64,000 bases of DNA, from NCBI GenBank assembly GCA_012813795.1, contig GCA_012813795.1_4087.1. One strand, 5' to 3'. The notes under the pieces are model-generated. The model was given only the letters and a program-made list of their open reading frames with translations, did no database searches and was not told the DNA's origin. The translations under genes and the position numbers were made by a program. This document shows, piece after piece, positions 8,899 to 52,063 of this stretch. Each line of letters opens with the position of its first letter. The stretch's first letter is position 1. This stretch comes from a phage.

Positions 8899-8943
8899 AA
8901 TAATATCTCCTATAGATGATGATATTATTTAGAGTGCTGAAAA

Positions 8944-27231: not shown

Positions 27232-27978
27232 TCATACATCCTCCTTGGGGTATAATTTTCTAAATTCAGTCATCAGTTTGTTGCGAATCGGTTTCGCATA
27301 ATCAATAACAGCTTGTGCTTTTACATGATAATCACCATATGTTTCATCATATATCTTATAGATGTTGTCGCGAATGTTCAGCATTTCAAGCACATCAAAC
27401 TCTTGTTTCATTGACGCAATATTCATTTCATGTTCAGTATTGGATCTGTACAGATTGTAATAATGCGTAATGATATAGATGAAGTGAATGCTATGCCAGA
27501 TGTTCTTCAGTCCTAACATCTTATCGTAATCTTCCAGTACTGTCAACTTCTTTTTTCCTTTATTAAAGGCTTTATCTGATGCAGTACTGCAAATTTTACG
27601 AATCTCACTGTTACGGCGTGTCATCATAACCGAACCGATATGACCAAGGTACATCAAAAGATGATTTGCACATTTCGGTACAATAGTACCAAAACCGATG
27701 GTATAGTATTTAACATCACCACGCATTAATTCGACACGAAGATGATTGAGAGTCATACATTCAATATTGACAGGTATATCAATACAATCTAATTTTACAG
27801 AGAACTCACCTTCTTCAAACTCTTCTGGTACTATATTAATAACATCAATATCATTTGGTAATTTGTCATCATACTTATACAAACAAAAAGTATTCCACGA
27901 ACCATAGATAAATGGGCATTTATAACCAATTTTGATTAGTTCGGTGATGATTGCTTCGGTTTGTTTTTCAAGATCCAT
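27232..27978 (-). CDS. hypothetical protein (possible minimal nucleotidyltransferase fold)
   Basis: 248 aa; N-terminal YGSWNTF...NDIDV weakly resembles the GS...DxD nucleotidyltransferase motif. Confidence 0.5.
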   Translation of the reverse strand: MDLEKQTEAIITELIKIGYKCPFIYGSWNTFCLYKYDDKLPNDIDVINIVPEEFEEGEFSVKLDCIDIPVNIECMTLNHLRVELMRGDVKYYTIGFGTIVPKCANHLLMYLGHIGSVMMTRRNSEIRKICSTASDKAFNKGKKKLTVLEDYDKMLGLKNIWHSIHFIYIITHYYNLYRSNTEHEMNIASMKQEFDVLEMLNIRDNIYKIYDETYGDYHVKAQAVIDYAKPIRNKLMTEFRKLYPKEDV

Positions 27979-27997: not shown

Positions 27998-28019
27998 ATC
28001 CCTGCCAATTGACAGGGAT
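27998..28019 (-). terminator. intrinsic terminator (minus strand)
   Basis: Stem ATCCCTG/CAGGGAT with 8-nt loop, followed on the minus strand by T5. Confidence 0.55.
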
Positions 28020-28122: not shown

Positions 28123-28311
28123 TCAAAAACCTTTTTGTGCAACCAGTTCACGATATTGTGCACGTGTTAGTACACCTTGCTTACGTAGAGACTGAAGCCC
28201 ACTTAAAGTTTCAGCTTTACGTAGCTCATAAGTGCGTTGTTCTTTGGATTGAATAACTTTCACTTTTTTAACTTTAACTTCTGGTTCTTTTTTCTTAGGT
28301 TGTTTAGCCAT
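28123..28311 (-). CDS. small basic protein
   Basis: 62 aa; Lys-rich N-terminus (MAKQPKKKEPEVKVKKVKV). Confidence 0.45.
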   Translation of the reverse strand: MAKQPKKKEPEVKVKKVKVIQSKEQRTYELRKAETLSGLQSLRKQGVLTRAQYRELVAQKGF

Positions 28312-28379
28312 GATTTACTTCCTTCTTCGATAATGGTGTGTTCATTATAGCAATGAACACATTTAATGTCAATAATAGA

Positions 28380-29819
28380 TTACATATTTTCTTCTGCAAA
28401 CTCTGCAAGTGCAGAACGTACAACACCTTCCAATTCAATGATACGACACCCTTCCCAATCTTTGAATTTTTCAGTTACATATGTCAAACCACTATTAACT
28501 GGACTAATAAACTTACTATCAATCTGTGCTAAGTTACCCATAATGATAACCTTACAGTTTTGACCAGCACGGGTAAGAATAGTCTTTGCCTGTGCAGGGG
28601 TGATGTTCTGGAATTCATCTACAATTAGAATTGTATTAGTAAAAGAACGACCACGAATAAAGTTCAATGCTTTAAACTGCATTACGTTACGTTTGAGAAT
28701 CTCTTCAATGCTACCTTGTGGGTTAGCATCATCTTTGTGTAGATACTCTAGAGCATCGATTGCAGCCCCACAGAATGGGATGACCTTTTCAGCTTCAGAA
28801 CCAGGCAAGAAACCAATTTCTTCAAATTGAGAATCTTGTGTTTTGGAGAAGATTATACGATCATATTTACGTTTTTCCAGCACTAATTCAAGGGAAGTAG
28901 CAACGGTAATCAGTGTTTTACCAGTACCTGCTGAACCTAGTAGTACTGTCAAATGTACATCAGGGTCAAGAATACTGTTAATTGCTAGTGCCTGTTGAAT
29001 ATTCTTTGCTTTAATATCCCAAACTTTAGCACGAAGAGCGATACTTTGACCAATATCCTGGAATACCAAAATATCTTCAGGTGTTAGTGAACCGTCTTCT
29101 TCTTCGATAGCAGATTGACCTTCGTATACGAATAGTACATCAGCATTATCATATAGATAATCACCAATACATAGATTATCTGGTAGAACATCTTGAATCA
29201 ATGCGGTTGGAATATAGTGATATAGACGGCGACCTTCTTGTTGGGATTTAATTTCAGCATTGTTAACTTCACTGAATGTTTTCCAGAAATCAATATCAAG
29301 GTGGTGCTGTCCAATATGAATCAACTCACTATCTTCGATTGCAACGTCATGGCGGTAATCTTGTACCTCAACACCGTAGCTCATTGCTTTGATACGCATG
29401 TTAATGTCGCGAGTTACCAGTACTGATTGTGATGCCAAAGCCACTAGAATGATTTTGTCATCTGGTACAGTACTTTTAAGTAGAGTTTCTACTTTATCTT
29501 CACTGCCGCCCATACGAATAAGTGCTTCAGCTTCTTCATTCGTCATAACGAATAGCTTACTGGATGCATCCATATTTTTGTGGATATTGGCAATATTAAC
29601 ACCAGTACTGCTGATTTCTTCATGAGTAGCATCTTTCAGAATTGCATCGATGTTACGGATTGCGAAACGTGCATCACGTGATACGTCAACATTACGGCTC
29701 TTGATTGAATCAAGTTCTTCAAGAACAGTGAATGGTAGAATCACTGCTGCCCCATCAAATGCTACGGTTGCATTTGGATCGGATAGTAGTACGTTTGTGT
29801 CAATTGTGTATTTTTTCAT
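28380..29819 (-). CDS. phoH: PhoH-like ATPase with N-terminal PIN-like domain
   Basis: Walker A GSAGTGKT and Walker B LIVDEFQN in the C-terminal half; N-terminal IDTNVLL...LEELD is PIN-like; start set to the ATG (MKKYTID) with AAGGA RBS. Confidence 0.85.
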   Translation of the reverse strand: MKKYTIDTNVLLSDPNATVAFDGAAVILPFTVLEELDSIKSRNVDVSRDARFAIRNIDAILKDATHEEISSTGVNIANIHKNMDASSKLFVMTNEEAEALIRMGGSEDKVETLLKSTVPDDKIILVALASQSVLVTRDINMRIKAMSYGVEVQDYRHDVAIEDSELIHIGQHHLDIDFWKTFSEVNNAEIKSQQEGRRLYHYIPTALIQDVLPDNLCIGDYLYDNADVLFVYEGQSAIEEEDGSLTPEDILVFQDIGQSIALRAKVWDIKAKNIQQALAINSILDPDVHLTVLLGSAGTGKTLITVATSLELVLEKRKYDRIIFSKTQDSQFEEIGFLPGSEAEKVIPFCGAAIDALEYLHKDDANPQGSIEEILKRNVMQFKALNFIRGRSFTNTILIVDEFQNITPAQAKTILTRAGQNCKVIIMGNLAQIDSKFISPVNSGLTYVTEKFKDWEGCRIIELEGVVRSALAEFAEENM

Positions 29820-29883
29820 AAAACATCCTTGAGTTATGAGCACATCCTTGTGCTCTACGGTAGATTATAGACTCAGACACTTC

Positions 29884-30183
29884 TTATTGTGGCTCATAGT
29901 CAACGTAGCAGCGGTGACCGCGAGCCTTTTCTGTCCAGCATTCATTGTAAACAATTTGCCCAACTGAAACTGGTTTCCTTGATGCTCCATACTTAATAGA
30001 CCCATCTTCAGTCTTATAAGTAAATGAACATGTATTTTCTTCACACTGCCCTATGTCAGTAACAACAGCAGTACGGTAGTATATATCTCTGTGTTTGGTT
30101 TGATCTTGATGATAAAAGAACCAAAACCCAATAAGAAATATAATACTTGTGATTATAAAGCTTTGTATATGATGTTTTGTCAA
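29884..30183 (-). CDS. membrane-anchored hypothetical protein
   Basis: 99 aa; N-terminal TM (FIITSIIFLIGFWFFY) then Cys-containing domain. Confidence 0.5.
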   Translation of the reverse strand: MTKHHIQSFIITSIIFLIGFWFFYHQDQTKHRDIYYRTAVVTDIGQCEENTCSFTYKTEDGSIKYGASRKPVSVGQIVYNECWTEKARGHRCYVDYEPQ

Positions 30184-30512
30184 TTGTCCCCTCTCAAAAA
30201 TCTAAAACCATTCTGTAAGTACGTGTCAATGTTGACCTTCCCTACAGGATTACTGCTATGGATGATATAATCGAATTCAGTACTGATATTGTTTTCGACC
30301 ATATAATCAATTAGAAATTTTGCAAATGAATACCCTGTCTTTTCATCCTCCCCAACATCACCTAAGTCATGATCGAAGCTAATAAATTGTGGTAAACCAT
30401 GTTCATTTACATAAGCACATGCACTTTCATAATCACGACATAAAACCATGTTTTGATTTGGATAATACTTTTCAGGATCACGAATATCATCCAGAAACAT
30501 TGAGTAAGACAT
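30180..30512 (-). CDS. hypothetical protein
   Basis: 110-aa track ORF; ATG verified; 4-nt overlap with downstream gene. Confidence 0.5.
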   Translation of the reverse strand: MSYSMFLDDIRDPEKYYPNQNMVLCRDYESACAYVNEHGLPQFISFDHDLGDVGEDEKTGYSFAKFLIDYMVENNISTEFDYIIHSSNPVGKVNIDTYLQNGFRFLRGDN

Positions 30513-30523
30513 TATAATTCACC

Positions 30524-31072
30524 TTATAAGTAACTAATCAGTAAATTCTCGGATTGAACAAGATGTTCTAATTCCATTTTAGCAGTTCCTATGAAGTTTT
30601 GTGTCATAAGATTATTATATCCTGCTTCTCGGTTTTGTCCCTTTGAATAACGAGAAATGTGACATAAATTAACACCAGCCACTTCTGCACTTGCATGTTT
30701 AGCAGTACTGTATCCATCGCGAATCGCTTTCAATTCTTCGTAAGTAACTTCATAACTATAGCTATGGGTATGTGCTCCTGGATATAGTTCGTAAGTTTTC
30801 AATGGTTTCAATTGTTCGATAAAAATATTATAATTCATCTCTTCCTGAATTTCACGGAATAGTGCATCTTCTAAGGTGGCATCGGTATCTTCGACTGTTC
30901 CACCACAACCACCCAGTAAACCATCCCAACGAAGCTGGAGTAATACCAGATTCACAACAGGGATATCATTTAATTCATAACCTTTATATGGGTTACAATT
31001 TCGAGCAAAGAAGTAACAGAATACAAAGTTTGCTCGTTTACCATACTCACCTAGAGGTACTTCTCGAATCAT
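30524..31072 (-). CDS. Nudix-family hydrolase
   Basis: 182 aa; Nudix-box-like GGTVE...REIQEEMNY with non-canonical spacing; start overlaps the Sir2 stop as ATGA. Confidence 0.55.
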   Translation of the reverse strand: MIREVPLGEYGKRANFVFCYFFARNCNPYKGYELNDIPVVNLVLLQLRWDGLLGGCGGTVEDTDATLEDALFREIQEEMNYNIFIEQLKPLKTYELYPGAHTHSYSYEVTYEELKAIRDGYSTAKHASAEVAGVNLCHISRYSKGQNREAGYNNLMTQNFIGTAKMELEHLVQSENLLISYL

Positions 31073-31821
31073 TTCATTCTATCCTTAATGATAGTTTCCA
31101 GTACTGGAATCGCTTTTGTAGCTGGTTTTATAATTTTTTCATTGAACATGAAATCGTTATCATTTTTTCTGATGTTGATATTAACACTAAAGCATGGTAA
31201 ACAAGCAACCAGATGTGACCATTTCAGTACTGTGTCACTGCTACCAATGACTACAACTGTATCATCTTCTGTTAAGGATTGCAATACTAAATTACGCTCA
31301 TCGTATATTGGGAGTTTTTCACCATCAACATAACGATAATATTCACCAATGAACACTACGTTTGGTTTCGCAAAGACACCTTCTTTCGGAATGTACGGTT
31401 CATAACCACAATCCACAATACTATAATCGTCACCACCAATTGTAAAATTCTCAATAACTTCTTTTAAATTACCATGTAACTTTAATTCATTACCACCAAT
31501 ACGAGTATAGAGATCATCCATATTCGAAGTCATATGTAAAAAGTTATCCCCGTATGTATCTTCTAGAGATTTGATATAATAATGCATATCATTAGGAACA
31601 CAATCTTTCATTTTATCACGTAATGTATTATAGAAAGTGTGTACTAAATGATACTTAGTACTAAGACGTGCAATGTTACATACATCATTTATTTGAAATT
31701 GATCCCATAGACCATCGTCCATGCGAAACGGTTCCATCCCACTTTCAACGGATAGACCTGCACCGGAAATAACCAATACACGTTTATTACCTTTATTTTT
31801 TATAAAAGAGTCAGAAATCAT
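31069..31821 (-). CDS. Sir2-family (sirtuin-like) NAD-dependent enzyme
   Basis: 250 aa; canonical sirtuin motifs GAGLSVESGMEPFR, TSNMDDL, LHGNL, VVFIGE, VVVIGSS; no Zn-ribbon cysteines. Confidence 0.8.
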   Translation of the reverse strand: MISDSFIKNKGNKRVLVISGAGLSVESGMEPFRMDDGLWDQFQINDVCNIARLSTKYHLVHTFYNTLRDKMKDCVPNDMHYYIKSLEDTYGDNFLHMTSNMDDLYTRIGGNELKLHGNLKEVIENFTIGGDDYSIVDCGYEPYIPKEGVFAKPNVVFIGEYYRYVDGEKLPIYDERNLVLQSLTEDDTVVVIGSSDTVLKWSHLVACLPCFSVNINIRKNDNDFMFNEKIIKPATKAIPVLETIIKDRMK

Positions 31822-32030
31822 AGCTTACCTACTGTACCTAATGAACTCAAATCATATACAAATAATATACACACAACAGAGATGATAATATGATATACCA
31901 TCCATCCATTGAATTTCTCTTTGTTTTTGATAATTTTATATATACATTTAATATTATTGTACGCTGCAACTGCTAGAAATACAACAACAAAATAAACAAA
32001 GCATAGTGAAAAGTAATTGATAGTTATCAT
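31818..32030 (-). CDS. small membrane protein
   Basis: 70 aa with two hydrophobic segments. Confidence 0.45.
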   Translation of the reverse strand: MITINYFSLCFVYFVVVFLAVAAYNNIKCIYKIIKNKEKFNGWMVYHIIISVVCILFVYDLSSLGTVGKL

Positions 32031-32063
32031 AGTTATAATACTCTCCTTATTAAATTAATATAG

Positions 32064-32087
32064 GGGATTATAAGAATCCCCTTTTTT
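32064..32087 (+). terminator. orphan plus-strand intrinsic terminator hairpin
   Basis: Stem GGGGATT/AATCCCC with 4-nt loop, followed by T6 on the plus strand, inside a minus-strand gene block. Confidence 0.4.
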
Positions 32088-32090
32088 GTA

Positions 32091-32693
32091 TTACAGCTTA
32101 GGATAGCTTAGTAAATCATACTCAGCACTAACGCTGGTGACATTATCACTTACAATTTTGAAGATAGAATCGGTGCGGTCAACCATCTTAACACCTGTTT
32201 CTTTTTGAACTTCAATATATGCTTGCATAGCTGCAATTGCATGATATGTCCCACTACCTACTGACGTAATTTGAGTCTTCGGCTGGAGTACTGAAAAATC
32301 CCCTTGAACTTCATAAATTGTATGATTGTGGAGAATAATAAACTGTCCACCACCAACGTCTTGAGTTGTATCACGAGCACCCCATTCTTCTTTAAAGAGT
32401 GTGCGAATACGTGGGATTACCTCAAGTACTAAGTACTGTGAGAATGTTTGGTTTGATTGCTGTTCAGGTAAATCAAGTTTATACGTCAGCAATTGTCCCA
32501 TGCGGAAGCTCGACGTGTATCCCATTGCCATAACTTCTTTGGTGCGATTCAATCCACTTTCATCGATTTTGATGAATTCTTTTTCAAACACTTTTGGTTC
32601 AGTTTGAATTGCTTTAGTGAAACCATTACTACCCAGTTTGTCACCAGCGATAAAAGATGTGTTACCATCAGTATAAGCAATAATACAAGTCAT
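32091..32693 (-). CDS. HslV/proteasome-beta-like Ntn hydrolase
   Basis: 200 aa; N-terminal MTCIIAYTDGNTSFIAGD aligns with the HslV Thr1 region (TTIVSVRRNGHVVIAGD); internal SVGSGTYHAIAAMQA aligns with HslV IGSGGPYAQAAARA. Confidence 0.55.
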   Translation of the reverse strand: MTCIIAYTDGNTSFIAGDKLGSNGFTKAIQTEPKVFEKEFIKIDESGLNRTKEVMAMGYTSSFRMGQLLTYKLDLPEQQSNQTFSQYLVLEVIPRIRTLFKEEWGARDTTQDVGGGQFIILHNHTIYEVQGDFSVLQPKTQITSVGSGTYHAIAAMQAYIEVQKETGVKMVDRTDSIFKIVSDNVTSVSAEYDLLSYPKL

Positions 32694-33094: not shown

Positions 33095-33700
33095 TTATTG
33101 AATAATTCCCCATTTAACTAGATCTGTTCTTCGTAAGACAACGATATCCTCACCATGTTTAGTACTGATATCAATGAGTGTTTCAGCGGGGATACCGTTA
33201 TGTGCGTACAGTGTAAAAAGATACCCAACTTTAGTTGAGACTTGATGTGTAAACTCCATCAACTGTCTAACTGAAACGAATGTAGTATCTGGATCTGCAC
33301 CATTCGTAGATACCAGTGAGATGTTATGTAAACCCATCACTGCGGTATCACTCATATCCCTACGTTCAGTTGATGCAGAGAAAAAAACCAGACTACAAGA
33401 CGAATTACATTGCTTTGGGACATAAACAGTTAACTTTTTAGCAGCCACAAACAATCCCAAATCTAATCCTGCATCAAAATCTCCACCTGGTGATGTAATT
33501 GTTAAAATTTTAAATCTTGTTTCTTTCCACAACTTCTTCACTTCTTGTACAGTTTCATCATTTAGTTCACCATCAATTGACACAACATGTTCATTTAATA
33601 GAAAAACAGATGATTTTTTTGAAACTTCTGCCGCTGCCGGAAAGTTTAATGCAGCGATTAAAACAACGGTTTGTACAATCTCTTTCAAGATTCGTTTCAT
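33095..33700 (-). CDS. secreted ClpP/S49-like serine peptidase-fold protein
   Basis: 201 aa; N-terminal signal peptide (VVLIAALNFPAAA); ITSPGGDFDAGLDLGLF resembles the ClpP/crotonase-fold active-site region. Confidence 0.5.
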   Translation of the reverse strand: MKRILKEIVQTVVLIAALNFPAAAEVSKKSSVFLLNEHVVSIDGELNDETVQEVKKLWKETRFKILTITSPGGDFDAGLDLGLFVAAKKLTVYVPKQCNSSCSLVFFSASTERRDMSDTAVMGLHNISLVSTNGADPDTTFVSVRQLMEFTHQVSTKVGYLFTLYAHNGIPAETLIDISTKHGEDIVVLRRTDLVKWGIIQ

Positions 33701-33899: not shown

Positions 33900-36800
33900 A
33901 TGAAACCAATAGCTGGCTTAGATCAATTTCCATTTGTTATAGGTGGATTGCAGGTTACTGCTGCAAAGATAGAAGGGCAAGTATTTGTTAAAGAATTGTA
34001 TGTTATAAAACAAAGAACATTCGATTCGTATGATTTGATATCTGAAAATTTCAAGATTTACAAAGATATAAAAATCACAGGTAGAAATAAAGATAAATCA
34101 ACATTGACGTATGATGATGACGATGCTGAAATTGCTAAATCTTTAGCAAATAATACATTTTGCATAAAAGAATCTGATGATTTTAACAAAAAATATGGTT
34201 TTGGTATACAATATCAATTGAATAAAATAAAATTACATAATGGTGAAGTGATATTTAGACAATCCTCAATTCGACCATCAGTACTTAATGGTGTTTTCAT
34301 TACACCGAGTTCATTTGAGATTGATGTTGGTCAACAACAAGTATTTGACGCGATATATGATCCACAAAGTTGGATTAATAAAAATGGTACTTGGGATTAT
34401 GATAAATCAGTTTTTGATGTGGTTTCTTTTACACAAACATCAATCACACTTCTCGCTAAACAAGATGCCATTAATACAGAAATAAAATATTCACCTACTG
34501 GACGAGAAATAAATCGCATAGCAGTCAGTATAGGTTCAGTAGTAGATAACACTTCTATAATTAAAAACATTTCAATAACACCTAATGTCATAAATTCCAA
34601 ATTATCTGAAGATTTTACAGTTAATGTAGTTTATGATCCTATCAAATATAAATTCAAATCAGGTAAATGGTCTGTCAGTGATACATCAGTACTACAATTT
34701 GTTTCTGGTGATGGTGAAACTGCGACATTTAAACCTATCAGCGTTGGTTCTTCCACAATAACATTCACATTAGATAAAGATAGTACAAAAACTGCAACTG
34801 CATCAGTTGAAGTATCTTATGCAGATTTAAAATCCGTCACAATATCACCAGAAAATGTAACTGGTACTATAGGTGAAACTGGTAGTATTTCAATAAGTTA
34901 TGTACCAGATAATGCACAAAAAGGTGGTTCATGGGCTATTTCTGATAAATTAATACTAAAAGAATTATCATCGACAATATCAGAATTTGATTATGAATTG
35001 GTTGGTAATGGAACAACATATGCTACATTCGTCCCATTAGCTAATTATGATGGTTCAATGATAACTGCTAAATTTGATGTTAACTATTCAAAACTTGAAA
35101 ACATTGTTCTTACACCTTCATCAGTTAGTAATCTAGTTCCAGGCGACACAGGAAAAATTAGTATTGAATATACACCAAGTACTGTTGAAACTGGTGGTAC
35201 ATGGTCATTCAATCCAACTGGTGTAATAGAACAAGATCTCAGCAAAAGTACGAGTACTGAAATGTATTATAATGTATTAATCCCAGGTACATCAACTGCA
35301 ACATTCCACCCAACTGCGTCATATGATGGAACTCCTAAAACTGTTTCATTTGAAGTTGGGAATTCCGAGTTAACTGGTATTACGCTAACACCTACTACAT
35401 CAACCGTAAAAATTGGTGATGATTTCTATATTGATATTACATATGAACCAAACACTGCTCTACATGAAGGTACATGGAATACATCAGATTTTGAGAAATA
35501 TGTAACACTCGAATCAGATAGTACACCTGATCGTGCACATTTTAAAGCTATAGGTGTGATTGATTCTGTTAATCTGACATATTCAAAAGGAACAATTAGT
35601 GCAACTAACAAATGTGCAGTTAATTATTCTGATTTAAAATCTATCACATTAAGTCCAACTGCAACATATGCTAAACTTGGTGATGATTTCTATGTAGATA
35701 TTGCATATGATCCAGACACAGCACAACACACGGGTTCATGGAATACATCAGATTTTGAGAAATATGTAACACTAGAATCAGATAGTACACCTGACCGTGC
35801 ACACTTCAAAGCAATTGATTTAGTTGATGAAGTTGATTTGGTATATTCGAATGGTAATATAAGTGATACGAATTATTGTGGAGTTAGTCGTCCACCATTA
35901 ATTTCAGTTTCATTGTCACCTTCTTCTGAAAAAGTTAAAGTTGGTGATTCCTTTAATGTGAAGATTACATATAACCCTAATACTGCTCAACATTACGGTG
36001 AATGGAATTTGGATGAAATAAAAGAATATCTTACATATGATTCGGATCTTAGTGTTTATGATGTGGCTGTGTTTGATGTTATTAAACGTTCTGAAACACC
36101 AATAGAATTGAAATTTACAAGTGCAGGTAAAACTGCAACAAACACTTGTGAATTTGAAGAAGCTGTGTTAACCGGAATTTCATTGAAAATACAAGAAAAT
36201 ACGCCAATATACGACAGCCTATATGTTGTACCATATAAAGGTGACATATATATTGATGTTCTACCTATTCCAGCCGACGCAAAATTACCAGACGATATTG
36301 GAACCATCACTGATAATACGGGATTATATGATTTAACGTTTTTTGATTTTTTGAGTTTTAATAAAGAAAAAAGTACAAATCACCGTTTGTATTTTGATTT
36401 TGTTTCATCATTTGATGAGTATATGTATTTTATTGAGGAATCTTCAAAAGGATTAATATTCACATATACACTGTCTAATGGTATGACGGTAGACTCACCG
36501 GCAATGGTAACAAATTTTCCAGAACTGACGAAAGTCACCCTTGTGCCATCATCTGGAAAATGTGATGTTAACTCAATAATAAAATGCGAGGCAACACTTG
36601 ATAATGGTATGTCAACTTATTATATTAATCCGTTGAGTACTTATACAAGTGAACACGAGGATTATTTGGTAATTGAAGATAGAACATCCTTTCAGCCGTT
36701 TGATGAATTCCTTGAACCAATTGAAATTGTAGGTAAACTTCCAACAAATATATATGTACCAGATGGTAATTACGTATATTTCACATATACACTATCAACC

Positions 36801-37187
36801 ACACCTGCCCAACCGTTGATTGATTATAATATTTACATATATGATAGTAATGAATGTATAAAAGGACGTATAAAAAATCCAACAGACGTAGTTAACATAA
36901 AATATATGAATGTCTTTTTCTTTGACATAGAGAATAATCCACCAAATGCTTTATATAGAGGAAAAATGGAAGGTGGTATTCCTGTTACGTTTCAATATGA
37001 CACCCAAAATTCTAGATTAAATTCGTATACTTATATGGTACAGGGGGTAACTGATGGACCAATAACTCTAAAATACACTTCATCTGCTACTGGTGTTATT
37101 AGAACTGCACAAGTTGATGTTACTGGACCAATGACTGATGATAGTAATAAAACTGATGAGGGGGGTGATGGTGATTTACTTAAATGA
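33900..37187 (+). CDS. large Ig-like (Big_2-type) repeat protein 1
   Basis: 1095 aa; about 7 tandem ~90-aa units with the recurring pattern ...TP..(V/K)(L/I).GD.F...I.Y.P.TA.H.G.W...; distinct ~330-aa C-terminal region. Confidence 0.75.
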   Translation: MKPIAGLDQFPFVIGGLQVTAAKIEGQVFVKELYVIKQRTFDSYDLISENFKIYKDIKITGRNKDKSTLTYDDDDAEIAKSLANNTFCIKESDDFNKKYGFGIQYQLNKIKLHNGEVIFRQSSIRPSVLNGVFITPSSFEIDVGQQQVFDAIYDPQSWINKNGTWDYDKSVFDVVSFTQTSITLLAKQDAINTEIKYSPTGREINRIAVSIGSVVDNTSIIKNISITPNVINSKLSEDFTVNVVYDPIKYKFKSGKWSVSDTSVLQFVSGDGETATFKPISVGSSTITFTLDKDSTKTATASVEVSYADLKSVTISPENVTGTIGETGSISISYVPDNAQKGGSWAISDKLILKELSSTISEFDYELVGNGTTYATFVPLANYDGSMITAKFDVNYSKLENIVLTPSSVSNLVPGDTGKISIEYTPSTVETGGTWSFNPTGVIEQDLSKSTSTEMYYNVLIPGTSTATFHPTASYDGTPKTVSFEVGNSELTGITLTPTTSTVKIGDDFYIDITYEPNTALHEGTWNTSDFEKYVTLESDSTPDRAHFKAIGVIDSVNLTYSKGTISATNKCAVNYSDLKSITLSPTATYAKLGDDFYVDIAYDPDTAQHTGSWNTSDFEKYVTLESDSTPDRAHFKAIDLVDEVDLVYSNGNISDTNYCGVSRPPLISVSLSPSSEKVKVGDSFNVKITYNPNTAQHYGEWNLDEIKEYLTYDSDLSVYDVAVFDVIKRSETPIELKFTSAGKTATNTCEFEEAVLTGISLKIQENTPIYDSLYVVPYKGDIYIDVLPIPADAKLPDDIGTITDNTGLYDLTFFDFLSFNKEKSTNHRLYFDFVSSFDEYMYFIEESSKGLIFTYTLSNGMTVDSPAMVTNFPELTKVTLVPSSGKCDVNSIIKCEATLDNGMSTYYINPLSTYTSEHEDYLVIEDRTSFQPFDEFLEPIEIVGKLPTNIYVPDGNYVYFTYTLSTTPAQPLIDYNIYIYDSNECIKGRIKNPTDVVNIKYMNVFFFDIENNPPNALYRGKMEGGIPVTFQYDTQNSRLNSYTYMVQGVTDGPITLKYTSSATGVIRTAQVDVTGPMTDDSNKTDEGGDGDLLK
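35415..35825 (+). repeat. near-identical intragenic tandem duplication (period about 273 bp)
   Basis: Two copies sharing an almost identical ~60-bp core (catggaatacatcagattttgagaaatatgtaacact.gaatcagatagtacacctga), encoding the duplicated peptide SDFEKYVTLESDSTPDRAHFKAI. Confidence 0.8.
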
Positions 37188-37223
37188 TTATAAATTAATT
37201 TTAATGCTAAGGAGAAATATTTT

Positions 37224-39743
37224 ATGGCAGAATTAAAATCAATTAGATTTAACAATAATGGTGTTGTAAACAGCACCATTTATAAAACCAGTACTATAAC
37301 GGTTACATATGACCCAGTTGATTGGTATGATCAAACTGGGAAATGGGTATATGATAGTACGTATATTAAAGTGTTGTATAGGAGTGGTGAGAAACTTATT
37401 TTCAAAACACTCAAAGAAGGAAACACAAATATATCATTTTCACCAACTAATTATGATTCTTTAAAACAAACGTGTACTGTTGATATTCATACCGATACAG
37501 TTCAAAGTATCTCATTGAATCCAACTGAAAACATGTTGAAGTATAGTTCTGAATTTGAAATCGATGTCACTTATAACCCACCAATTGGCACGGATCTTCC
37601 AACATGGACATATGATAAAAATGTTTTAACATATGATGCTGAAAAAAGTACAAGGGATAAAGCTTTCTTTAAAGTAAATTCTAGTGTTTTAAGTCCAGTA
37701 TCAGGTAAGATTACATGTACGTATGGTGTAGATTTATCAGCGGAAAGTTTTTATTACGTGTCCGAAAACCCCGCATCACGTGTAAAATTGTCTCCTGATA
37801 CATCAAACGTACTACTTGGTGATACGTTCTCAGTTAATATTTTATATGATCCACTTGGGTGTGATAAAACTGGTGTATGGAGTTACGATGATACATGTCT
37901 TGAATACAACGAATCACGCTCAACTTCTGATGTTGCATATTTTAAAGCAATTAAAACACCAGAAGGAAATAATGACACGTTAAAATTAACATATAAATGT
38001 GCATCATCCGTGTCCGATTCAACAACGTGTACAATATCATATGATCCATTGCAATCAGTTAAATTGACAACAATCCCAGCTTCATTGAATCCAGATGCAA
38101 TGATAAACGTAAAAGCTGGGGATGGGTTTAGTGTTAAGGTCACATATGTCCCAGACACCGCCAGACATGATGGTGTTTTGAATTTTAACCCACTATATTT
38201 CACCTATGAAAAAGACCAATCTGCACAAGACACTTTTTTAATCACACCAATTCTACCATCTATAGACACTGATGAACCTGTGCAGCCGATATCTTTTACT
38301 TCTAACGGGATTATATCAAATATACTCAATTTCACAATAGATTATTCTGACCTTGTTTCGGTATCTTTTGACCCACCAGAAGTTAATACAACCGCTGGTT
38401 CTGTATTTGGTGTAACTGTGATTTATAATCCAAGCACAGCTAAAAATGACGGTGAATGGAACATTGCTAATGTTCTGGATTATATTAAAAAAGGAACAAC
38501 AGTCGGTGATTCAACTTCATTCCAATCTTTGAAAGCCACAGTTGATAGTGATGGAAACCCATCAAGTATAGATATGGTTTACAAAAGTGGTTATATCAGT
38601 ACACCTATTAAATGTAACATTGATTATAGTGAGTTGAAATCTATTAATGTAAAATGTGATCCGTCATATCCACTGAATACTTCTCTTGGGATAATAGCAA
38701 CATATACACCAGACACCGCAAAACATGATGGTGTATGGACATGTTCATCAGATTTAATTCCAGGTGCATCTACTCCAGATCTTGGGTCATTCCGTACAGG
38801 TAAATTAGTAAATGCAAAAAGTGTAGTTACTGTAACATCTAAATCCAATAAAGATATTGGTGCATCATGTGGATTTACCTCAACTTATTCTAAGTTAAAA
38901 GGTATAACAGTAACACCACTTGGAACAACAACAGTTAAACCTGGTGATTCATTTGGTATACAAATATCGTATAATCCAAACACTGCACAGCATCTTGGTA
39001 TGTATAATTGGGATTTTAACCCTGATTATTTTGAATATAACTATGAGTTGTCAGAGCCAAACAAAGATATACAATATTTTAATGCTTTATTACCCACACC
39101 AGAAGAAGGTTCAGTACTAACATGTCTCCCACCTGAAGGGTCTGGTGCTACATCTGGTAAATGTGTAATAACCGTTAGTTATCCTCCAATCAAATCAGTG
39201 TCTATTGAACCACCTGAATCAACTCATAAATTTGGTGATGTGTTCAACCTTATCGTGAAATATGATCCAGATACAGCAAGAAAAATGGGTACATGGGAAT
39301 ATGATAAAGATCGAATAGCATTAGTTAATCCGGTAACCGACCTTAACGATCAAGCAACATTTTATGTTATCAATAACGGTATAGGTGGAGAAACGGATAT
39401 ATCATATTCATATTATCCAGGCGTAACTGCAACACATAAGTGTACTGTAGAATATGAAAACTTGGATACCCTAAGTTTAGTTCCTCCAAGAATCAAGAAA
39501 AAACCAGGTAATACTTTCTATATAAAAATCATATACACACCAGATGGTGCATTACATGATGGTACATGGACATACAATAAAACTGTATTTGAATATACAC
39601 AGGAAAGTACTAAAGATTTGGGAGTTTTTAAAATTTCCGACACTGCTCCTGAAGGTGCATACCAATTATCATATCAACCAAAAACTGCTGATCCAGATCA
39701 AACATTCCCACCTGTAATTTTACAATGCACTATTACAAAATAA
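37224..39743 (+). CDS. large Ig-like repeat protein 2
   Basis: 839 aa; about 9 repeat units of the same type; GGAGAAA RBS. Confidence 0.75.
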   Translation: MAELKSIRFNNNGVVNSTIYKTSTITVTYDPVDWYDQTGKWVYDSTYIKVLYRSGEKLIFKTLKEGNTNISFSPTNYDSLKQTCTVDIHTDTVQSISLNPTENMLKYSSEFEIDVTYNPPIGTDLPTWTYDKNVLTYDAEKSTRDKAFFKVNSSVLSPVSGKITCTYGVDLSAESFYYVSENPASRVKLSPDTSNVLLGDTFSVNILYDPLGCDKTGVWSYDDTCLEYNESRSTSDVAYFKAIKTPEGNNDTLKLTYKCASSVSDSTTCTISYDPLQSVKLTTIPASLNPDAMINVKAGDGFSVKVTYVPDTARHDGVLNFNPLYFTYEKDQSAQDTFLITPILPSIDTDEPVQPISFTSNGIISNILNFTIDYSDLVSVSFDPPEVNTTAGSVFGVTVIYNPSTAKNDGEWNIANVLDYIKKGTTVGDSTSFQSLKATVDSDGNPSSIDMVYKSGYISTPIKCNIDYSELKSINVKCDPSYPLNTSLGIIATYTPDTAKHDGVWTCSSDLIPGASTPDLGSFRTGKLVNAKSVVTVTSKSNKDIGASCGFTSTYSKLKGITVTPLGTTTVKPGDSFGIQISYNPNTAQHLGMYNWDFNPDYFEYNYELSEPNKDIQYFNALLPTPEEGSVLTCLPPEGSGATSGKCVITVSYPPIKSVSIEPPESTHKFGDVFNLIVKYDPDTARKMGTWEYDKDRIALVNPVTDLNDQATFYVINNGIGGETDISYSYYPGVTATHKCTVEYENLDTLSLVPPRIKKKPGNTFYIKIIYTPDGALHDGTWTYNKTVFEYTQESTKDLGVFKISDTAPEGAYQLSYQPKTADPDQTFPPVILQCTITK

Positions 39744-39770
39744 TAGACTGAAATTACTTTACAAAAAAAA

Positions 39771-39792
39771 TGTGGTTGAATATTCAACCACA
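39771..39792. repeat. perfect 22-bp palindrome
   Basis: TGTGGTTGAATATTCAACCACA preceded by A8, 20 nt upstream of the RBS of 39814. Confidence 0.7.
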
Positions 39793-39813
39793 TAATAAGA
39801 AGGAAACATAATT

Positions 39814-41439
39814 ATGATAGAAGATTCAAAAAATCTTATTTCAGTTAGTTTAAACAAAAGAACTATTAGAACTTCTGTTCGTGATGTTAACACATTATAT
39901 GTTAGTTTTAATCCACCTGACTATATTAATCAGGTTGGAACATGGACATATGATGAACAGTATATTGAAATGATCACACAAGATAATTTGGTTTTTGTTT
40001 TTAAATCTATAAAAAGTGGTGTAACCACCATAACATACACACCACGTGATAATAAAGCATTATCGAAGAATTGTATAGTTAATATTGAAAAAATACCATT
40101 ATCATCAATTAGTCTTAACCCAAATTATATAACTTTATACAAAGGTCAAACTTTTGATATTGATATATCATATATCCCAGATGGAGCAGTTCATTCGGGT
40201 AATTGGAGTAATTTAAACAATGATATATTGTATATAGGTCAACAAAGTACACCTGATAAATCAAGAATGCAAGTACTAACAACTGATGCTAAGATGATAA
40301 CTTTATATTATACCAGTGGCGAAATATCAGTTCCTTTGAATTGTACTATATTGAACAACCCAGCAGATGAAATTATTTTCGATCCACCATCACCAATTAA
40401 TGTAACAGTTGGTGAGAGTTTTTTTGTAAACATAAACTATGCACCAGAAAATGCGGATAAGGTTGGATTCTGGGAATATGATGATTCAGTACTGATGTTA
40501 TTGAATGATAGTGATAAGGCATCCAGTGCACATTTTGTGGCTACCAAAAAAACCACATCAACTGGAACTGAACTTAAATTCCGTTCAGGTGATGTGTACT
40601 CAACGTTACAGTGCTTTATAACTCCTGGTGTTTTAGATTTATTAACATTAACACCTAGTTATGAAACGGTGGTTGTTGGTGACGCGTTTGACATTGGAAT
40701 AACCTATTACCCAGAAGACATAATTCACAAAGGTATATGGGAATATGATTCTACATATTTCAAAAAAATGTTCGATGACTCAAATACTGCAACATTTAGA
40801 TTAATCAAAAAATCCGACATACCATTAAAATTAAGATATATCTCTTATGGGAGAGCATTTAATAATATATGCACTACTGTTGAAAATGGTGATTTAGTTT
40901 CATTACAATTAAACCCTAATTCCGAATCAGTTGAGGTTGGTAAAAGTTTTGATATCGCAATAACATATAAACCTGATAATGCTTTACATAGTGGTATATG
41001 GGATTTCGATTCGGAATATATTAAATTGGAAAAATCAAGTACAGTGGATAAAGCAACATTTACAGTACTGAAATATAATCCAAATCCATTAACATTAACT
41101 TATAAATCAGGTAAAACAACTGCAACAAACAAATGTATTACTGTAAAAAATACACCAGTATTAAGTAGTATTAAAGTATCCCCAGAATCAACTGAAATGA
41201 AAGTTGGTGATACAGTATTATTATCAATTTCATACAACCCTAATACAGTAGAGCATATGGGAATGTGGTATTATGATAAAAAACTATTCAAATTAATAGA
41301 CACAGGTCAAACACATGACTATGGTATATTTGAATGCTTGGCGGTGTCAGACGCAAAATCACCAATAGTATTTTCAAGTGCTGGAAATGCTGATGCTTGT
41401 ATTGTCACAACTAAAGAAAAAACAACTAAAGAGGATTAA
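39814..41439 (+). CDS. large Ig-like repeat protein 3
   Basis: 541 aa; about 6 repeat units; AAGGAAA RBS. Confidence 0.75.
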   Translation: MIEDSKNLISVSLNKRTIRTSVRDVNTLYVSFNPPDYINQVGTWTYDEQYIEMITQDNLVFVFKSIKSGVTTITYTPRDNKALSKNCIVNIEKIPLSSISLNPNYITLYKGQTFDIDISYIPDGAVHSGNWSNLNNDILYIGQQSTPDKSRMQVLTTDAKMITLYYTSGEISVPLNCTILNNPADEIIFDPPSPINVTVGESFFVNINYAPENADKVGFWEYDDSVLMLLNDSDKASSAHFVATKKTTSTGTELKFRSGDVYSTLQCFITPGVLDLLTLTPSYETVVVGDAFDIGITYYPEDIIHKGIWEYDSTYFKKMFDDSNTATFRLIKKSDIPLKLRYISYGRAFNNICTTVENGDLVSLQLNPNSESVEVGKSFDIAITYKPDNALHSGIWDFDSEYIKLEKSSTVDKATFTVLKYNPNPLTLTYKSGKTTATNKCITVKNTPVLSSIKVSPESTEMKVGDTVLLSISYNPNTVEHMGMWYYDKKLFKLIDTGQTHDYGIFECLAVSDAKSPIVFSSAGNADACIVTTKEKTTKED

Positions 41440-41442
41440 ATC

Positions 41443-51647: not shown

Positions 51648-52063
51648 ATAGTCCTCATTGTACTCATAGCTTTTAGTGTTTCGTACATATGACCGTATTT
51701 GGAAAATAGCTGTAAATCAGACATTGGGTCGTTAGTACGCATCAGTGCCATGTCATCAATCATTTCTTCAGTGCATAGTACTGCTACACTAGTGAGGGTA
51801 TCGTTCAAACCTGGTTCATTGAATTTAGCAAATGGAACCTTGCCCTGTTTGGATAGATTCTCGTAATGAGTGGTTAATTTATCTTGGTTGCCAGCATTGA
51901 GAATTACAATAGTTTCGTGCTCATTATACCATTCATCGATTAGAGTACTGAATACTGTACCTTCATATTCTTTGACGAGTTTAATACCAGCATGAAATGC
52001 CTGAACGCCAGCCTGAACACCCTGACAGTACATGTTTGTTAAGCAATATAGTTTCACTTCCAT
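51644..52063 (-). CDS. hypothetical protein
   Basis: 139-aa track ORF. Confidence 0.5.
   Translation of the reverse strand: MEVKLYCLTNMYCQGVQAGVQAFHAGIKLVKEYEGTVFSTLIDEWYNEHETIVILNAGNQDKLTTHYENLSKQGKVPFAKFNEPGLNDTLTSVAVLCTEEMIDDMALMRTNDPMSDLQLFSKYGHMYETLKAMSTMRTI

What the first reader, a model, noticed from the sequence alone, without database searches (positions are those of the whole stretch)
30180..31821. Phage-encoded canonical Sir2 translationally coupled to a Nudix hydrolase
The 250-aa protein has the sirtuin NAD-binding and catalytic motifs (GAGLSVESG...FR, TSNMDDL, LHG, VVFIGE) but no Zn-ribbon. Its stop overlaps the start of a Nudix-box protein as ATGA, implying co-expression. Sir2 enzymes consume NAD+ and release ADP-ribose derivatives, and Nudix enzymes commonly hydrolyse ADP-ribose or NAD-derived nucleotides. 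Sir2 domains are best known as effectors of bacterial anti-phage systems, so a Sir2-Nudix pair carried by the phage is a candidate host-takeover or counter-defence module.
Basis: partly seen in the sequence, partly recalled or inferred. Interest (0 to 1): 0.75.

Follow-up and report, generated by a model that had tools for sequence, protein, structure and literature searches.

The report
Jumbo-phage sirtuin–Nudix–cREC gene cassette
A giant E. coli phage carries a tightly packed set of genes for an NAD-consuming sirtuin, a NUDT16-type Nudix hydrolase and a cyclic-phosphate esterase; this cassette was already described by comparative genomics and predicted to repair cut RNA, but nobody has tested it.

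Summary
On the minus strand, a 250-aa sirtuin (31069..31821) ends in an ATGA overlap with a 182-aa Nudix gene (30524..31072). The catalytic motifs are intact and the zinc-ribbon cysteines are absent.

All three sit in a six-gene block that ends with a PIN–PhoH protein.

The window is an Asteriusvirus jumbo phage, 98% identical to Escherichia phage A4. The order Sir2→Nudix→cREC→membrane protein→PIN-PhoH is kept in all 17 complete related jumbo-phage loci. In one clade Nudix and cREC are fused.

The sirtuin is closest to E. coli CobB and does not match defence-type Sir2 models. The Nudix belongs to the NUDT16 family.

In unrelated phages, the same zinc-less sirtuin clade sits next to RNA ligase, kinase and phosphoesterase genes.

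Iyer et al. 2022 (Viruses 14:1977) described this neighbourhood and predicted NAD-dependent RNA repair, with the sirtuin acting like Tpt1/KptA. I adopt that as the best explanation at modest confidence. I found no experimental test. Component identities are firm; the mechanism is inferred. Novelty is low.

The parts
31818..32030 (-). 70-aa small membrane protein. It is the first gene of the tightly packed block, and its stop overlaps the sirtuin start as ATGA.
   Evidence: ORF. No Pfam or PHROG family. Homologues found only in the closest Asteriusvirus loci L001-L003. Junction read from the sequence.
31069..31821 (-). Zinc-ribbon-less sirtuin, 250 aa, derived from the CobB/class III type. Predicted NAD+-consuming ADP-ribosyl-transferring enzyme.
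   Evidence: Pfam SIR2 6.5e-20 and phrog_2162 5e-72. E. coli CobB 1s5p/6rxj at 2e-21. AF2 model pLDDT 90.8, Foldseek TM 0.85 to CobB. Invariant G20, G22, T98, N100, D102, H116, G193, S195; near-invariant F32, R33, N216; no conserved Cys pairs. No PADLOC hit.
31069..31072 (-). ATGA stop/start overlap between the sirtuin and Nudix genes.
   Evidence: Sequence. This junction type is common in the genome: 19 of 94 same-strand pairs.
30524..31072 (-). NUDT16-family Nudix hydrolase, 182 aa. Predicted pyrophosphatase for ADP-ribose derivatives, ADP-ribose- or NAD-linked RNA ends, or IDP/ITP.
   Evidence: Pfam Nudt16-like 3.4e-19 and NUDIX 1.7e-6. Near-full-length (residues 28-178) match to human NUDT16 (5wji 2.5e-13) and Xenopus X29. 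R73, E74, E77 and E78 invariant in the clade. Fused to cREC in the BF-like clade.
30180..30512 (-). cREC (cyclic-phosphate processing receiver-like) protein, 110 aa. Predicted metal-independent cyclic phosphodiesterase.
   Evidence: Pfam cREC_REC 1.8e-22. Invariant D8, D9, R11, F46, D47, H48, D49, H85, S86, N88. AF2 pLDDT 94; nearest solved folds are response-regulator receiver domains.
29884..30183 (-). 99-aa membrane-anchored protein with four invariant cysteines. Its TTG start overlaps the cREC stop. It is conserved in the cassette; function unknown.
   Evidence: phrog_14661 1.3e-32. Present in the same position in all 17 complete jumbo loci. Alignment shows GQC..C..CW..CY invariant.
28380..29843 (-). 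PIN-PhoH fusion protein (PhoH2 type): predicted RNA nuclease plus ATPase/helicase. Last gene of the block. The start annotated in phage A4 corresponds to 29819.
   Evidence: Pfam PIN_4 1.2e-21 plus PhoH 1e-43; phrog_2765 2e-161. It is the most conserved gene of the cassette, with E-values of 1e-219 to 1e-281 in the related loci and effectively 0 in the near-identical phage A4. A4 annotation.
32062..32082 (.). GC-rich hairpin between the HslV-like gene and the block. Likely upstream boundary of the transcription unit.
   Evidence: Terminator-like site found on both strands. Consensus scan only.
28344..28372 (-). Perfect sigma-70 promoter (TTGACA-17-TATAAT with an extended TG) immediately after PIN-PhoH. 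It marks the start of the next unit and therefore the downstream boundary of the block.
   Evidence: 12 of 12 match. Consensus scan only.

Best explanation
This is the sirtuin-centred cassette of Rak2-like jumbo phages. It is a block of six co-oriented, overlapping or closely spaced genes: a small membrane protein, a zinc-less sirtuin, a NUDT16-type Nudix, cREC, a small Cys-rich membrane protein and PIN-PhoH.

The most likely function is NAD+-dependent processing or repair of damaged RNA ends, for example tRNAs cut by host anticodon nucleases.

Proposed steps, all inferred:
1. The sirtuin uses NAD+ to transfer ADP-ribose onto an RNA phosphate, releasing nicotinamide. The target would be a 2'-phosphate left after a 2',3'-cyclic end is opened, or a terminal phosphate.
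2. His116 activates the ADP-ribose 2''-OH, as in the second step of the sirtuin reaction. [quoted passage not shown] This is the same two-step chemistry that Tpt1/KptA performs.
3. cREC opens cyclic phosphates, on the RNA end and/or on the ADP-ribose product.
4. The Nudix cleaves the ADP-ribose pyrophosphate to AMP plus a ribose phosphate. It acts either on the free product or on ADP-ribose still attached to RNA.
5. PIN-PhoH supplies RNA unwinding and trimming.
6. The phage's own Pnkp and Rnl1, elsewhere in the window, can heal and seal the ends.

Shown here: the identity and intact active sites of each enzyme, the conserved gene order, the Nudix-cREC fusion, and the recurrence of RNA-ligase and kinase neighbours in other lineages.
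Inferred: every substrate and every reaction step.
For: Component identities:
- establish the families and folds.
- Catalytic residues are invariant across each clade.

Conserved order:
- Sir2→Nudix→cREC→membrane protein→PIN-PhoH is kept in all 17 complete jumbo-phage loci, down to 38% sirtuin identity.
- Nudix and cREC are fused into one ~300-aa protein in loci L009-L015, L017 and L018. An independent representative, P0162, shows the same fusion.

Independent lineages:
- In L050 (137 kb) the order is T4-type RNA ligase→cREC→sirtuin, with overlapping or nearly abutting ORFs.
- In L051 it is metallophosphoesterase→RNA ligase→AAA_33 kinase→two small ORFs→sirtuin.
- A Pfam tally of 149 neighbours of 16 non-jumbo sirtuin loci gives Metallophos 4, DNA_ligase_A_M 4, RNA_lig_T4_1 3, AAA_33 3, HAD_SAK_2 2 and NUDIX 2.
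- BF-like relatives carry a 2H phosphoesterase (HVTV/HMSI motifs) and a NAMPT-like gene just upstream of the sirtuin.

Other support:
- The same window encodes Rnl1, Pnkp and an RlaP nucleotidyltransferase.
- No Macro-domain gene was found among the scanned cassette genes and their nearest neighbours, and there is no defence-type Sir2 signature.
- The zinc-less sirtuins form a recognisable subclade with T[ST]N[VM]DD in place of TQNID.
- The same reading was proposed independently by Iyer et al. 2022 (PMC9503650, section 3.7.3).
- From established knowledge: the sirtuin steps (nucleophile attacks C1', then the His-activated 2'-OH attacks the adduct) parallel the two Tpt1 steps.
Against: - No biochemical or genetic test exists in the searched literature.
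- No sirtuin is known to act on RNA.
- Between the two jumbo clades, synteny extends well beyond the cassette (p62, p248, p185, p216). Conserved order there may therefore reflect common descent, not selection for co-function.
- T4-type Pnkp/Rnl1 repair leaves no 2'-phosphate, and this window has no 2H homologue. The step that would create the proposed substrate is therefore not evident in this phage.
- PIN nucleases are metal-dependent and do not make cyclic phosphates (established knowledge).
- The sirtuin's nearest relatives are all protein deacylases.
- cREC contexts elsewhere are heterogeneous.
- Fusions of NUDT16-like domains to Ham1 and HD domains point to nucleotide house-cleaning in some relatives.
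Confidence: 0.4

Rival explanations
1. The sirtuin is a protein lysine deacylase used for host take-over. It removes acetyl, succinyl or other acyl groups from host or phage proteins, as CobB does. The Nudix, and possibly cREC, dispose of the O-acyl-ADP-ribose by-product.
For: The closest sequence and structure relatives are E. coli CobB, Sir2Af and SIRT5, all deacylases. All NAD-binding and catalytic residues are kept. Y64 and R68 are invariant near the class III Y-x-x-R acyl-carboxylate site. From established knowledge, Nudix enzymes such as Ysa1 and NUDT5 hydrolyse O-acetyl-ADP-ribose.
Against: The zinc-ribbon module that helps form the peptide-binding cleft has lost its ligands. The Q of TQNID and the F of FGE are replaced. 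NCBIfam CobB equivalog scores are far below their cutoffs (92.8 against 318). This reading does not explain cREC, its fusion to the Nudix, or the recurrent RNA ligase and kinase neighbours.
Confidence: 0.25
2. The Nudix and cREC are small-molecule scavengers that blunt host immunity. They would degrade NAD-derived signals or toxins (cyclic ADP-ribose isomers, ADP-ribose cyclic phosphate or 1''-phosphate) or deaminated purine nucleotides (ITP/IDP made by RADAR- or Cad1-type deaminases). The sirtuin would have a separate or regulatory role.
For: cREC was defined from its association with NAD- and cyclic-nucleotide-processing systems (PMC7824862). NUDT16 hydrolyses IDP/dIDP (reference cited in PMC11645235). 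NUDT16-like domains are fused to Ham1 ITPase and to HD domains in other representatives. BF-like relatives place a NAMPT-like NAD-salvage gene nearby.
Against: An NAD-consuming sirtuin is invariably the upstream neighbour in the jumbo phages, which fits a producer and consumer pair better than a pure scavenger. No direct link to Thoeris-, CBASS- or RADAR-type systems was found. Substrates are unknown.
Confidence: 0.15
3. The genes are neighbours by descent only. They would be independent accessory genes of the early region that happen to be packed together, with no shared pathway.
For: 4-nt overlaps are common in this genome (19 of 94 pairs). Synteny between the jumbo clades extends beyond the cassette. 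L005-L008 tolerate an insertion between Sir2 and Nudix. Of 975 phage records with a sirtuin homologue, only 86 have this Nudix.
Against: The Nudix-cREC gene fusion. cREC lies adjacent to the sirtuin in an unrelated 137-kb phage. NAD- and RNA-related chemistry is consistent across all partners.
Confidence: 0.1
4. The sirtuin is a defence-type NADase, an abortive or superinfection-exclusion effector like ThsA, DSR or SIR2-HerA, carried by the phage.
For: Sir2 domains are common NAD-depleting effectors in bacterial immunity.
Against: No PADLOC model matches. There is no sensor or partner domain such as SLOG, HerA or pAgo. Every best structural and sequence match is a deacylase sirtuin. The gene lies in a lytic jumbo phage's early-type block.
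Confidence: 0.03

Closest known systems
Sirtuin-centred 'RNA-repair' gene neighbourhood type 1 of jumbo phages (Iyer, Burroughs, Anantharaman & Aravind 2022, Viruses 14:1977; prototype Serratia phage BF)
   Same: [quoted passage not shown] Serratia phage BF is among the Nudix hits. The BF-like loci L009-L018 are collinear with the window.
   Different: Here Nudix and cREC are separate genes, not fused. No 2H phosphoesterase or NAMPT-like gene is present in the window. The paper does not mention the NUDT16 affinity of the Nudix, the PhoH half of the PIN protein, the conserved Cys-rich membrane protein or the loss of the zinc ribbon.
E. coli CobB and other class III sirtuins (SIRT5, Sir2Af1)
   Same: Rossmann NAD-binding core, GAGxS, FR, N/D of the TQNID motif, catalytic His, GSS and N motifs. 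About 45% identity to CobB (my estimate from the printed alignment) over the N-terminal 110 residues. TM-score 0.85.
   Different: The four zinc-binding cysteines are lost. TQNID is replaced by TSNMD and FGE by IGE. Y-x-x-R becomes Y-x-x-x-R. Scores are far below the CobB equivalog cutoffs. The best cellular relatives reach only 34% identity or less.
Tpt1/KptA RNA 2'-phosphotransferase pathway (Tpt1, then a 2H cyclic phosphodiesterase, then Macro/Poa1)
   Same: The proposed logic is the same. [quoted passage not shown] This is a resemblance in mechanism only, and it is inferred.
   Different: The fold is unrelated: a sirtuin Rossmann fold, not an ART-like fold. No Tpt1 family hit was found. 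cREC and Nudix take the place of 2H and Macro. No activity has been shown.
Human NUDT16 / Xenopus X29 (U8 snoRNA-decapping enzyme; IDP and ADP-ribose-conjugate hydrolase)
   Same: Near-full-length sequence homology (residues 28-178; 2.5e-13 to 5wji). The variant Nudix box has the same spacing (LEDxLxRExxEE). PF22327 scores above its cutoff.
   Different: It is phage-encoded, adjacent or fused to cREC, and its substrate is unknown. The family is small: 467 representatives at E≤1e-3 out of 1.84 billion. A pattern scan of bacterial genomes found no close relatives.
Phage T4 Pnkp-Rnl1 tRNA repair
   Same: Both would counter host RNA-cleaving defences. Homologues of both T4 enzymes are encoded in this window (57667..58599 and 59673..60818). 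Rnl1-type ligases abut the sirtuin in other phages.
   Different: The T4 pathway needs no NAD+ and leaves no 2'-phosphate. The cassette lies 26-29 kb from those genes.
Defence-type SIR2 effectors (ThsA, DSR1/2, SIR2-HerA, SIR2-APAZ/pAgo)
   Same: The SIR2 superfamily fold and NAD+ as substrate.
   Different: No PADLOC match, no sensor or partner domains, and the nearest relatives are deacylase sirtuins. It is not a member.

Membership tests
SIR2/sirtuin family (PF02146) | Profile match above the curated threshold and a sirtuin fold | tested here: met
   72.3 bits against a cutoff of 24. AF2 model pLDDT 90.8. Foldseek TM 0.76/0.85 to CobB, E 1e-18.
SIR2/sirtuin family (PF02146) | NAD-binding and catalytic residues: GAGxS, FR, N and D of TQNID, catalytic His, G(S/T)S, N | tested here: met
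   G20, G22, T98, N100, D102, H116, G193 and S195 are invariant; F32, R33 and N216 are at least 90% conserved across 20 clade members. The residues align to the CobB motifs. The Q of TQNID is replaced by S.
SIR2/sirtuin family (PF02146) | Cys4 zinc-ribbon module | tested here: not met
   No Cys pairs between HG and KPNVV in the whole clade. Other phage sirtuins (L030, L055, L057, L058, L064, L067) keep the CxxC pairs. The module keeps a beta-hairpin of similar length.
CobB-type protein deacylase (NCBIfam equivalogs NF001755, NF040867) | Score above the equivalog cutoff | tested here: not met
   92.8 against 318 bits and 85.4 against 320 bits.
CobB-type protein deacylase (class III) | Y-x-x-R acyl-carboxylate recognition motif | tested here: inconclusive
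   The window has FYNTLR (Y64, R68; i+4). CobB has FYNARR. T5-like and rV5-like clade members keep Y-x-x-R.
CobB-type protein deacylase | NAD-dependent lysine deacylase activity | not testable with these tools
   Needs an enzyme assay.
Defence-type SIR2 effectors (PADLOC models) | Match to a defence-system SIR2 model, or presence of sensor or partner domains | tested here: not met
   No PADLOC hit at E≤0.1. The neighbours are Nudix, cREC and PIN-PhoH.
Nudix superfamily (PF00293) | Nudix box catalytic residues RExxEE and a profile match above the cutoff | tested here: met
   28.5 bits against 21.1. R73, E74, E77 and E78 are invariant.
NUDT16 family (PF22327) | Full-length homology to NUDT16/X29 | tested here: met
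   69.8 bits against 27. Human NUDT16 at 2.5e-13 over residues 28-178; X29 at 5.7e-11.
NUDT16 family (PF22327) | Decapping, IDP or ADP-ribose-conjugate hydrolase activity | not testable with these tools
   Needs an enzyme assay.
cREC (PF20274) | Profile match, conserved acidic active-site residues and a receiver-like fold with no histidine-kinase context | tested here: met
   80.3 bits against 27. D8, D9, D47, D49 and S86 are invariant. The nearest solved folds are receiver domains, but weakly (best E 6e-4, TM about 0.45-0.59). No kinase is nearby.
Phage sirtuin RNA-repair neighbourhood type 1 (Iyer et al. 2022) | Sirtuin linked to Nudix, cREC and a PIN endoRNase, with no adjacent Macro | tested here: met
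   The definition is in PMC9503650 section 3.7.3.
Phage sirtuin RNA-repair neighbourhood type 1 (Iyer et al. 2022) | Linked 2H phosphoesterase | tested here: not met
   No homologue of the L009 2H protein was found among window ORFs by phmmer. It is present in BF-like relatives.
Tpt1/KptA RNA 2'-phosphotransferase | Tpt1 fold and family match | tested here: not met
   No Tpt1/KptA family among the Pfam hits. The protein is a sirtuin. The resemblance is only in the proposed mechanism.

The most novel reading that the evidence does not exclude
The zinc-less phage sirtuin is the first sirtuin whose physiological substrate is RNA. It would be either an NAD+-dependent RNA 2'-phosphotransferase or an RNA-end ADP-ribosyltransferase. 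A NUDT16-type Nudix would remove or degrade the ADP-ribose 'cap', and cREC would open cyclic phosphates. Together they would form an RNA-repair or RNA-marking pathway that evolved independently of Tpt1/KptA and is used against host RNA-cleaving immunity.
Probability: 0.3. Interest if true: 0.75.

Novelty: already known. Interest (0 to 1): 0.38.

Why it matters
If the predicted chemistry is right, sirtuins would join ARTs and Tpt1 as enzymes that modify nucleic-acid ends. Phages would then have a second, NAD-dependent route to repair RNA cut by host defences.

The cassette is compact and occurs in cultivable E. coli phages such as A4, 121Q, PBECO4 and G17. Every component has intact active sites, so the hypothesis can be tested directly.

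As a finding from this scan, however, it rediscovers a neighbourhood already published in 2022, in a genome nearly identical to a GenBank record where the gene is annotated as Sir2-like.

The small additions from this work are:
- the NUDT16 affinity of the Nudix;
- the clade-wide loss of the zinc ribbon together with the Q-to-S/T change;
- the conserved Cys-rich membrane protein;
- the PhoH half of the PIN protein.

Tried and rejected
1. Defence-type Sir2: rejected. There is no PADLOC hit and the nearest relatives are deacylase sirtuins.
2. Recent capture of host cobB: rejected. The best cellular matches among 185,579 species genomes reach only 34% identity or less, and the listed top hits are not enterobacterial.
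3. The ATGA overlap as evidence of special coupling: rejected as uninformative (19 of 94 pairs).
4. Search for 2H and NAMPT homologues in the window, using the L009 proteins as queries: none found.
5. Search for bacterial homologues of the Nudix by pattern scan: none found. This method only finds fairly close relatives.
6. cREC contexts in three unrelated metagenomic phage contigs: heterogeneous neighbours (AAA_28, Nuc_deoxyrib_tr, RtcB and ligase nearby, or nothing informative). This neither helps nor hurts much.
7. jackhmmer with the window's Rnl1 and Pnkp against the fetched loci found nothing. The RNA ligases next to other sirtuins were only detected with Pfam.
8. p248 (27232..27978) as a possible RlaP paralogue: no similarity by BLASTP. 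It gave only weak Pol-beta/DUF6932 hits and no PDB relative.
9. Literature searches for experimental work on phage sirtuins, cREC or Asteriusvirus Sir2: none found.
10. tRNA scan of the window: no tRNA genes.
Full report
**1. What is there**

Everything in the interval is on the minus strand.
- ORF 31069..31821 encodes a 250-aa protein with the quoted motifs SGAGLSVESG…FR, TSNMDDL, KLHG and VVFIGE.
- It is followed by a 182-aa ORF at 30524..31072. The two genes share the four bases ATGA at 31069-31072.
- An AAGGA ribosome-binding site lies just upstream of the second start codon.

Pfam assigns the three proteins as follows:
- SIR2: 6.5e-20.
- Nudt16-like: 3.4e-19, plus NUDIX at 1.7e-6.
- cREC_REC, the "cyclic-phosphate processing receiver domain": 1.8e-22.

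PHROGs agrees.

One caveat applies. A 4-nt overlap is ordinary in this genome: 19 of 94 same-strand neighbouring pairs have one.

**2. Where it comes from**

- The region is 98.4% identical to Escherichia phage A4, a 355-kb Asteriusvirus jumbo phage. It is 74-77% identical to 121Q-like phages.
- In phage A4 the gene is already annotated "Sir2-like protein". In ELP-22 the pair is annotated "Sir2 NAD-dependent deacetylase" and "nudix hydrolase".

**3. The sirtuin**

Nearest relatives:
- The nearest solved relatives are E. coli CobB (2e-21; roughly 45% identity over the N-terminal 110 residues by my count of the printed alignment), Sir2Af and SIRT5.
- An AlphaFold model built from a 20-sequence clade alignment is confident (pLDDT 90.8).
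- The model superposes on CobB with TM 0.76/0.85. All top hits are deacylase sirtuins.
- No PADLOC defence model matches.

Active-site conservation across the clade:
- The NAD-binding and catalytic positions are invariant or nearly so: G20, G22, F32, R33, T98, N100, D102, H116, G193, S195, N216.
- There are no conserved cysteine pairs where the zinc ribbon should be.

Comparison of 22 phage sirtuins:
- A zinc-less subclade includes the jumbo, T5-like and rV5-like phages. It also replaces TQNID with T[ST]N[VM]DD.
- Other phage sirtuins keep both the CxxC pairs and TQNID.

Placement against cellular sirtuins:
- CobB equivalog models score far below their cutoffs.
- The best cellular homologues in 185,579 species genomes reach only 34% identity.
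- This is therefore a phage-specific derivative of class III sirtuins. It is not a recently captured host gene.

**4. The Nudix and cREC**

Nudix:
- It aligns over residues 28-178 with human NUDT16 (2.5e-13) and Xenopus X29. The unusual Nudix-box spacing is the same and the catalytic glutamates are kept.
- Those glutamates are invariant in the phage clade.
- The family is small: 467 representatives at E≤1e-3 among 1.84 billion.
- Multi-domain members are fused to cREC, to a Ham1 ITPase or to HD domains.

cREC:
- It keeps the invariant DD…FDHD…HSxNP constellation.
- It folds confidently (pLDDT 94) into a four-stranded, receiver-like α/β domain.
- Its nearest solved relatives are response-regulator receiver domains, but only weakly.

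**5. The unit is larger than a pair**

- The sirtuin start overlaps the stop of a 70-aa membrane protein (31818..32030).
- The cREC stop overlaps the TTG start of a 99-aa membrane-anchored protein with four invariant cysteines (29884..30183).
- After a short gap comes a PIN-PhoH fusion protein (28380..29843; PIN_4 1.2e-21, PhoH 1e-43).
- A GC-rich hairpin lies just upstream of the block, and a perfect σ70 promoter lies just after PIN-PhoH. These are consensus scans only, but they suggest one transcription unit.

I then examined 73 IMG/VR loci that encode related sirtuins.
- All 17 complete jumbo-phage loci keep the order Sir2→Nudix→cREC→membrane protein→PIN-PhoH. They fall into two clades, with sirtuin identity down to 38%.
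- In the nine complete BF/GAP32/CBB-like loci (L009-L015, L017, L018), Nudix and cREC are one fused ~300-aa protein.
- That fusion is the strongest evidence that at least those two enzymes work together.

Two cautions:
- Synteny between these clades continues beyond the cassette, so conserved order alone could be inherited.
- L005-L008 have about 380 nt inserted between the sirtuin and the Nudix.

**6. Independent contexts**

In unrelated, smaller phages, the zinc-less sirtuin sits among RNA end-healing and sealing genes.
- L050: T4-type RNA ligase→cREC→sirtuin.
- L051: metallophosphoesterase→RNA ligase→AAA_33 kinase→two small ORFs→sirtuin→DNA-ligase-like gene.
- A pooled Pfam scan of 149 neighbours from 16 non-jumbo loci was topped by Metallophos, ligase domains, RNA_lig_T4_1, AAA_33, HAD_SAK_2 and NUDIX.
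- BF-like jumbo phages add a 2H phosphoesterase and a NAMPT-like gene just upstream. The window has neither.
- The window does encode T4-type Rnl1 (59673..60818), Pnkp (57667..58599) and an RlaP nucleotidyltransferase (9379..10620).

**7. What is already known**

- Iyer et al. 2021 (PMC7824862) defined cREC.
- Iyer et al. [quoted passage not shown]
- They also described the ligase/kinase and HAD variants. They proposed that the sirtuin acts like KptA/Tpt1 to remove RNA 2'-phosphates, while the other enzymes open cyclic phosphates or degrade the ADP-ribose cyclic phosphate product.
- Serratia phage BF is among my Nudix hits.
- I found no experimental study of any phage sirtuin or cREC.

**8. 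Most likely mechanism**

I adopt the NAD-dependent RNA-end processing model at a confidence of about 0.4. The chemistry is plausible.
- In the first sirtuin step, an oxygen nucleophile attacks C1' of NAD+ and nicotinamide leaves.
- In the second step, the His-activated ribose 2'-OH attacks the adduct.
- With a phosphate as the nucleophile, these are the two steps Tpt1 performs (established knowledge; inference here).
- Class III sirtuins already recognise anionic acyl groups. The clade keeps an invariant Tyr/Arg pair near that site.

The NUDT16 affinity suggests the Nudix may act on ADP-ribose still joined to a macromolecule, or on a cap-like RNA end, and not only on free ADP-ribose. That is inference.

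Weak points:
- No sirtuin is known to act on RNA.
- T4-type repair makes no 2'-phosphate.
- This phage lacks a 2H enzyme.
- PIN nucleases do not make cyclic ends.

**9. Rivals**

- CobB-like protein deacylase for host take-over, with the Nudix clearing O-acyl-ADP-ribose: 0.25.
- Nudix and cREC as scavengers of NAD-derived signals, or of ITP/IDP made by deaminase defences: 0.15.
- Neighbours by descent with no shared pathway: 0.10.
- Defence-type NADase: 0.03.

**10. Verdict**

Its interpretation is partly right: canonical sirtuin, active Nudix, and NAD/ADP-ribose logic.
- It missed the third enzyme and the larger cassette.
- It leaned on a comparison with defence Sir2 proteins that the data do not support.
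- The system is already described in the literature and lies in an almost identical published genome. Novelty is low and interest moderate.
- What remains open, and testable, is the biochemistry.

Noticed in passing
window 57667..58599(-), 59673..60818(-), 9379..10620(-), 51644..52063(-): The same window encodes a T4-type Pnkp (AAA_33 kinase plus HAD_PNKP phosphatase), a T4 Rnl1-type RNA ligase, an RlaP 'RNA repair pathway' Pol-beta nucleotidyltransferase and a weak PTH2-like peptidyl-tRNA hydrolase hit. The phage therefore has a rich RNA-repair toolkit 18-29 kb from the sirtuin cassette.
   Followed up: partly
window 27232..27978(-): A 248-aa protein is conserved just downstream of the cassette in both jumbo clades. 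It has an invariant G-S…D-x-D…E pattern typical of Pol-beta-fold nucleotidyltransferases, but only weak Pfam hits (DUF6932 in 9 of 10 members, Polbeta in 5 of 10) and no PDB relative. It may belong to an extended RNA-processing module.
   Followed up: partly
window 29884..30183(-): A 99-aa protein with an N-terminal membrane helix and four invariant cysteines (GQC…C…CW…CY). It has a TTG start overlapping the cREC stop and is conserved in the cassette in every jumbo locus. Its function is unknown, and its soluble part may lie outside the cytoplasm.
   Followed up: partly
L004 7998..8738; proteins P0012, P0013: One branch of the jumbo-phage sirtuins has GNGL in place of GAGL and lacks the FR dipeptide of the NAD pocket, while the rest of the cassette is intact. 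This may be a catalytically dead sirtuin.
   Followed up: no
L005-L008, about 8753..9130: About 380 nt are inserted between the sirtuin and Nudix genes in one sub-group, so the ATGA coupling is not universal. The content of the insert was not examined.
   Followed up: no
L009 3969..5447 and 6872..7318: BF-like relatives carry a 492-aa gene that looks like a nicotinamide phosphoribosyltransferase (by eye, not profile-tested) and a 148-aa 2H phosphoesterase (HVTV and HMSI motifs) just upstream of the sirtuin. Neither has a homologue in this window.
   Followed up: partly
proteins P0211, P0209, P0255 (library representatives): NUDT16-like domains occur fused to a Ham1 ITPase and to HD_4 domains. 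This hints that some family members clean inosine or other non-canonical nucleotide pools, which is relevant to deaminase-based defences.
   Followed up: no
window 28344..28372(-) and 27998..28019(-): A perfect extended sigma-70 promoter (TTGACA-17-TATAAT with TG) drives a 62-aa basic protein gene (28123..28311). It is followed by a strong intrinsic-terminator-like hairpin, forming a very compact, apparently host-RNA-polymerase-transcribed unit.
   Followed up: no
window 32091..32693(-), 33095..33700(-), 46665..47360(-): An HslV-like peptidase, a ClpP/NfeD-like 'protease' with a signal-like N-terminus, and a bona fide ClpP (7.7e-42) are all encoded in this region of the phage.
   Followed up: no
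T5-like loci L019-L042, L075: In T5-like phages the zinc-less sirtuin lies about 3 kb from a PhoH gene that lacks the PIN domain, on the opposite strand. Sirtuin and PhoH therefore co-occur in a second, unrelated lineage. PhoH is common in phages, so this may be coincidence.
   Followed up: no
window 33900..43644(+): This is the only plus-strand block in the window (94 of 99 genes are on the minus strand). It holds four large ORFs, including a 1095-aa protein with many internal repeats of an about 90-aa unit, probably structural or adhesin-like.
   Followed up: no
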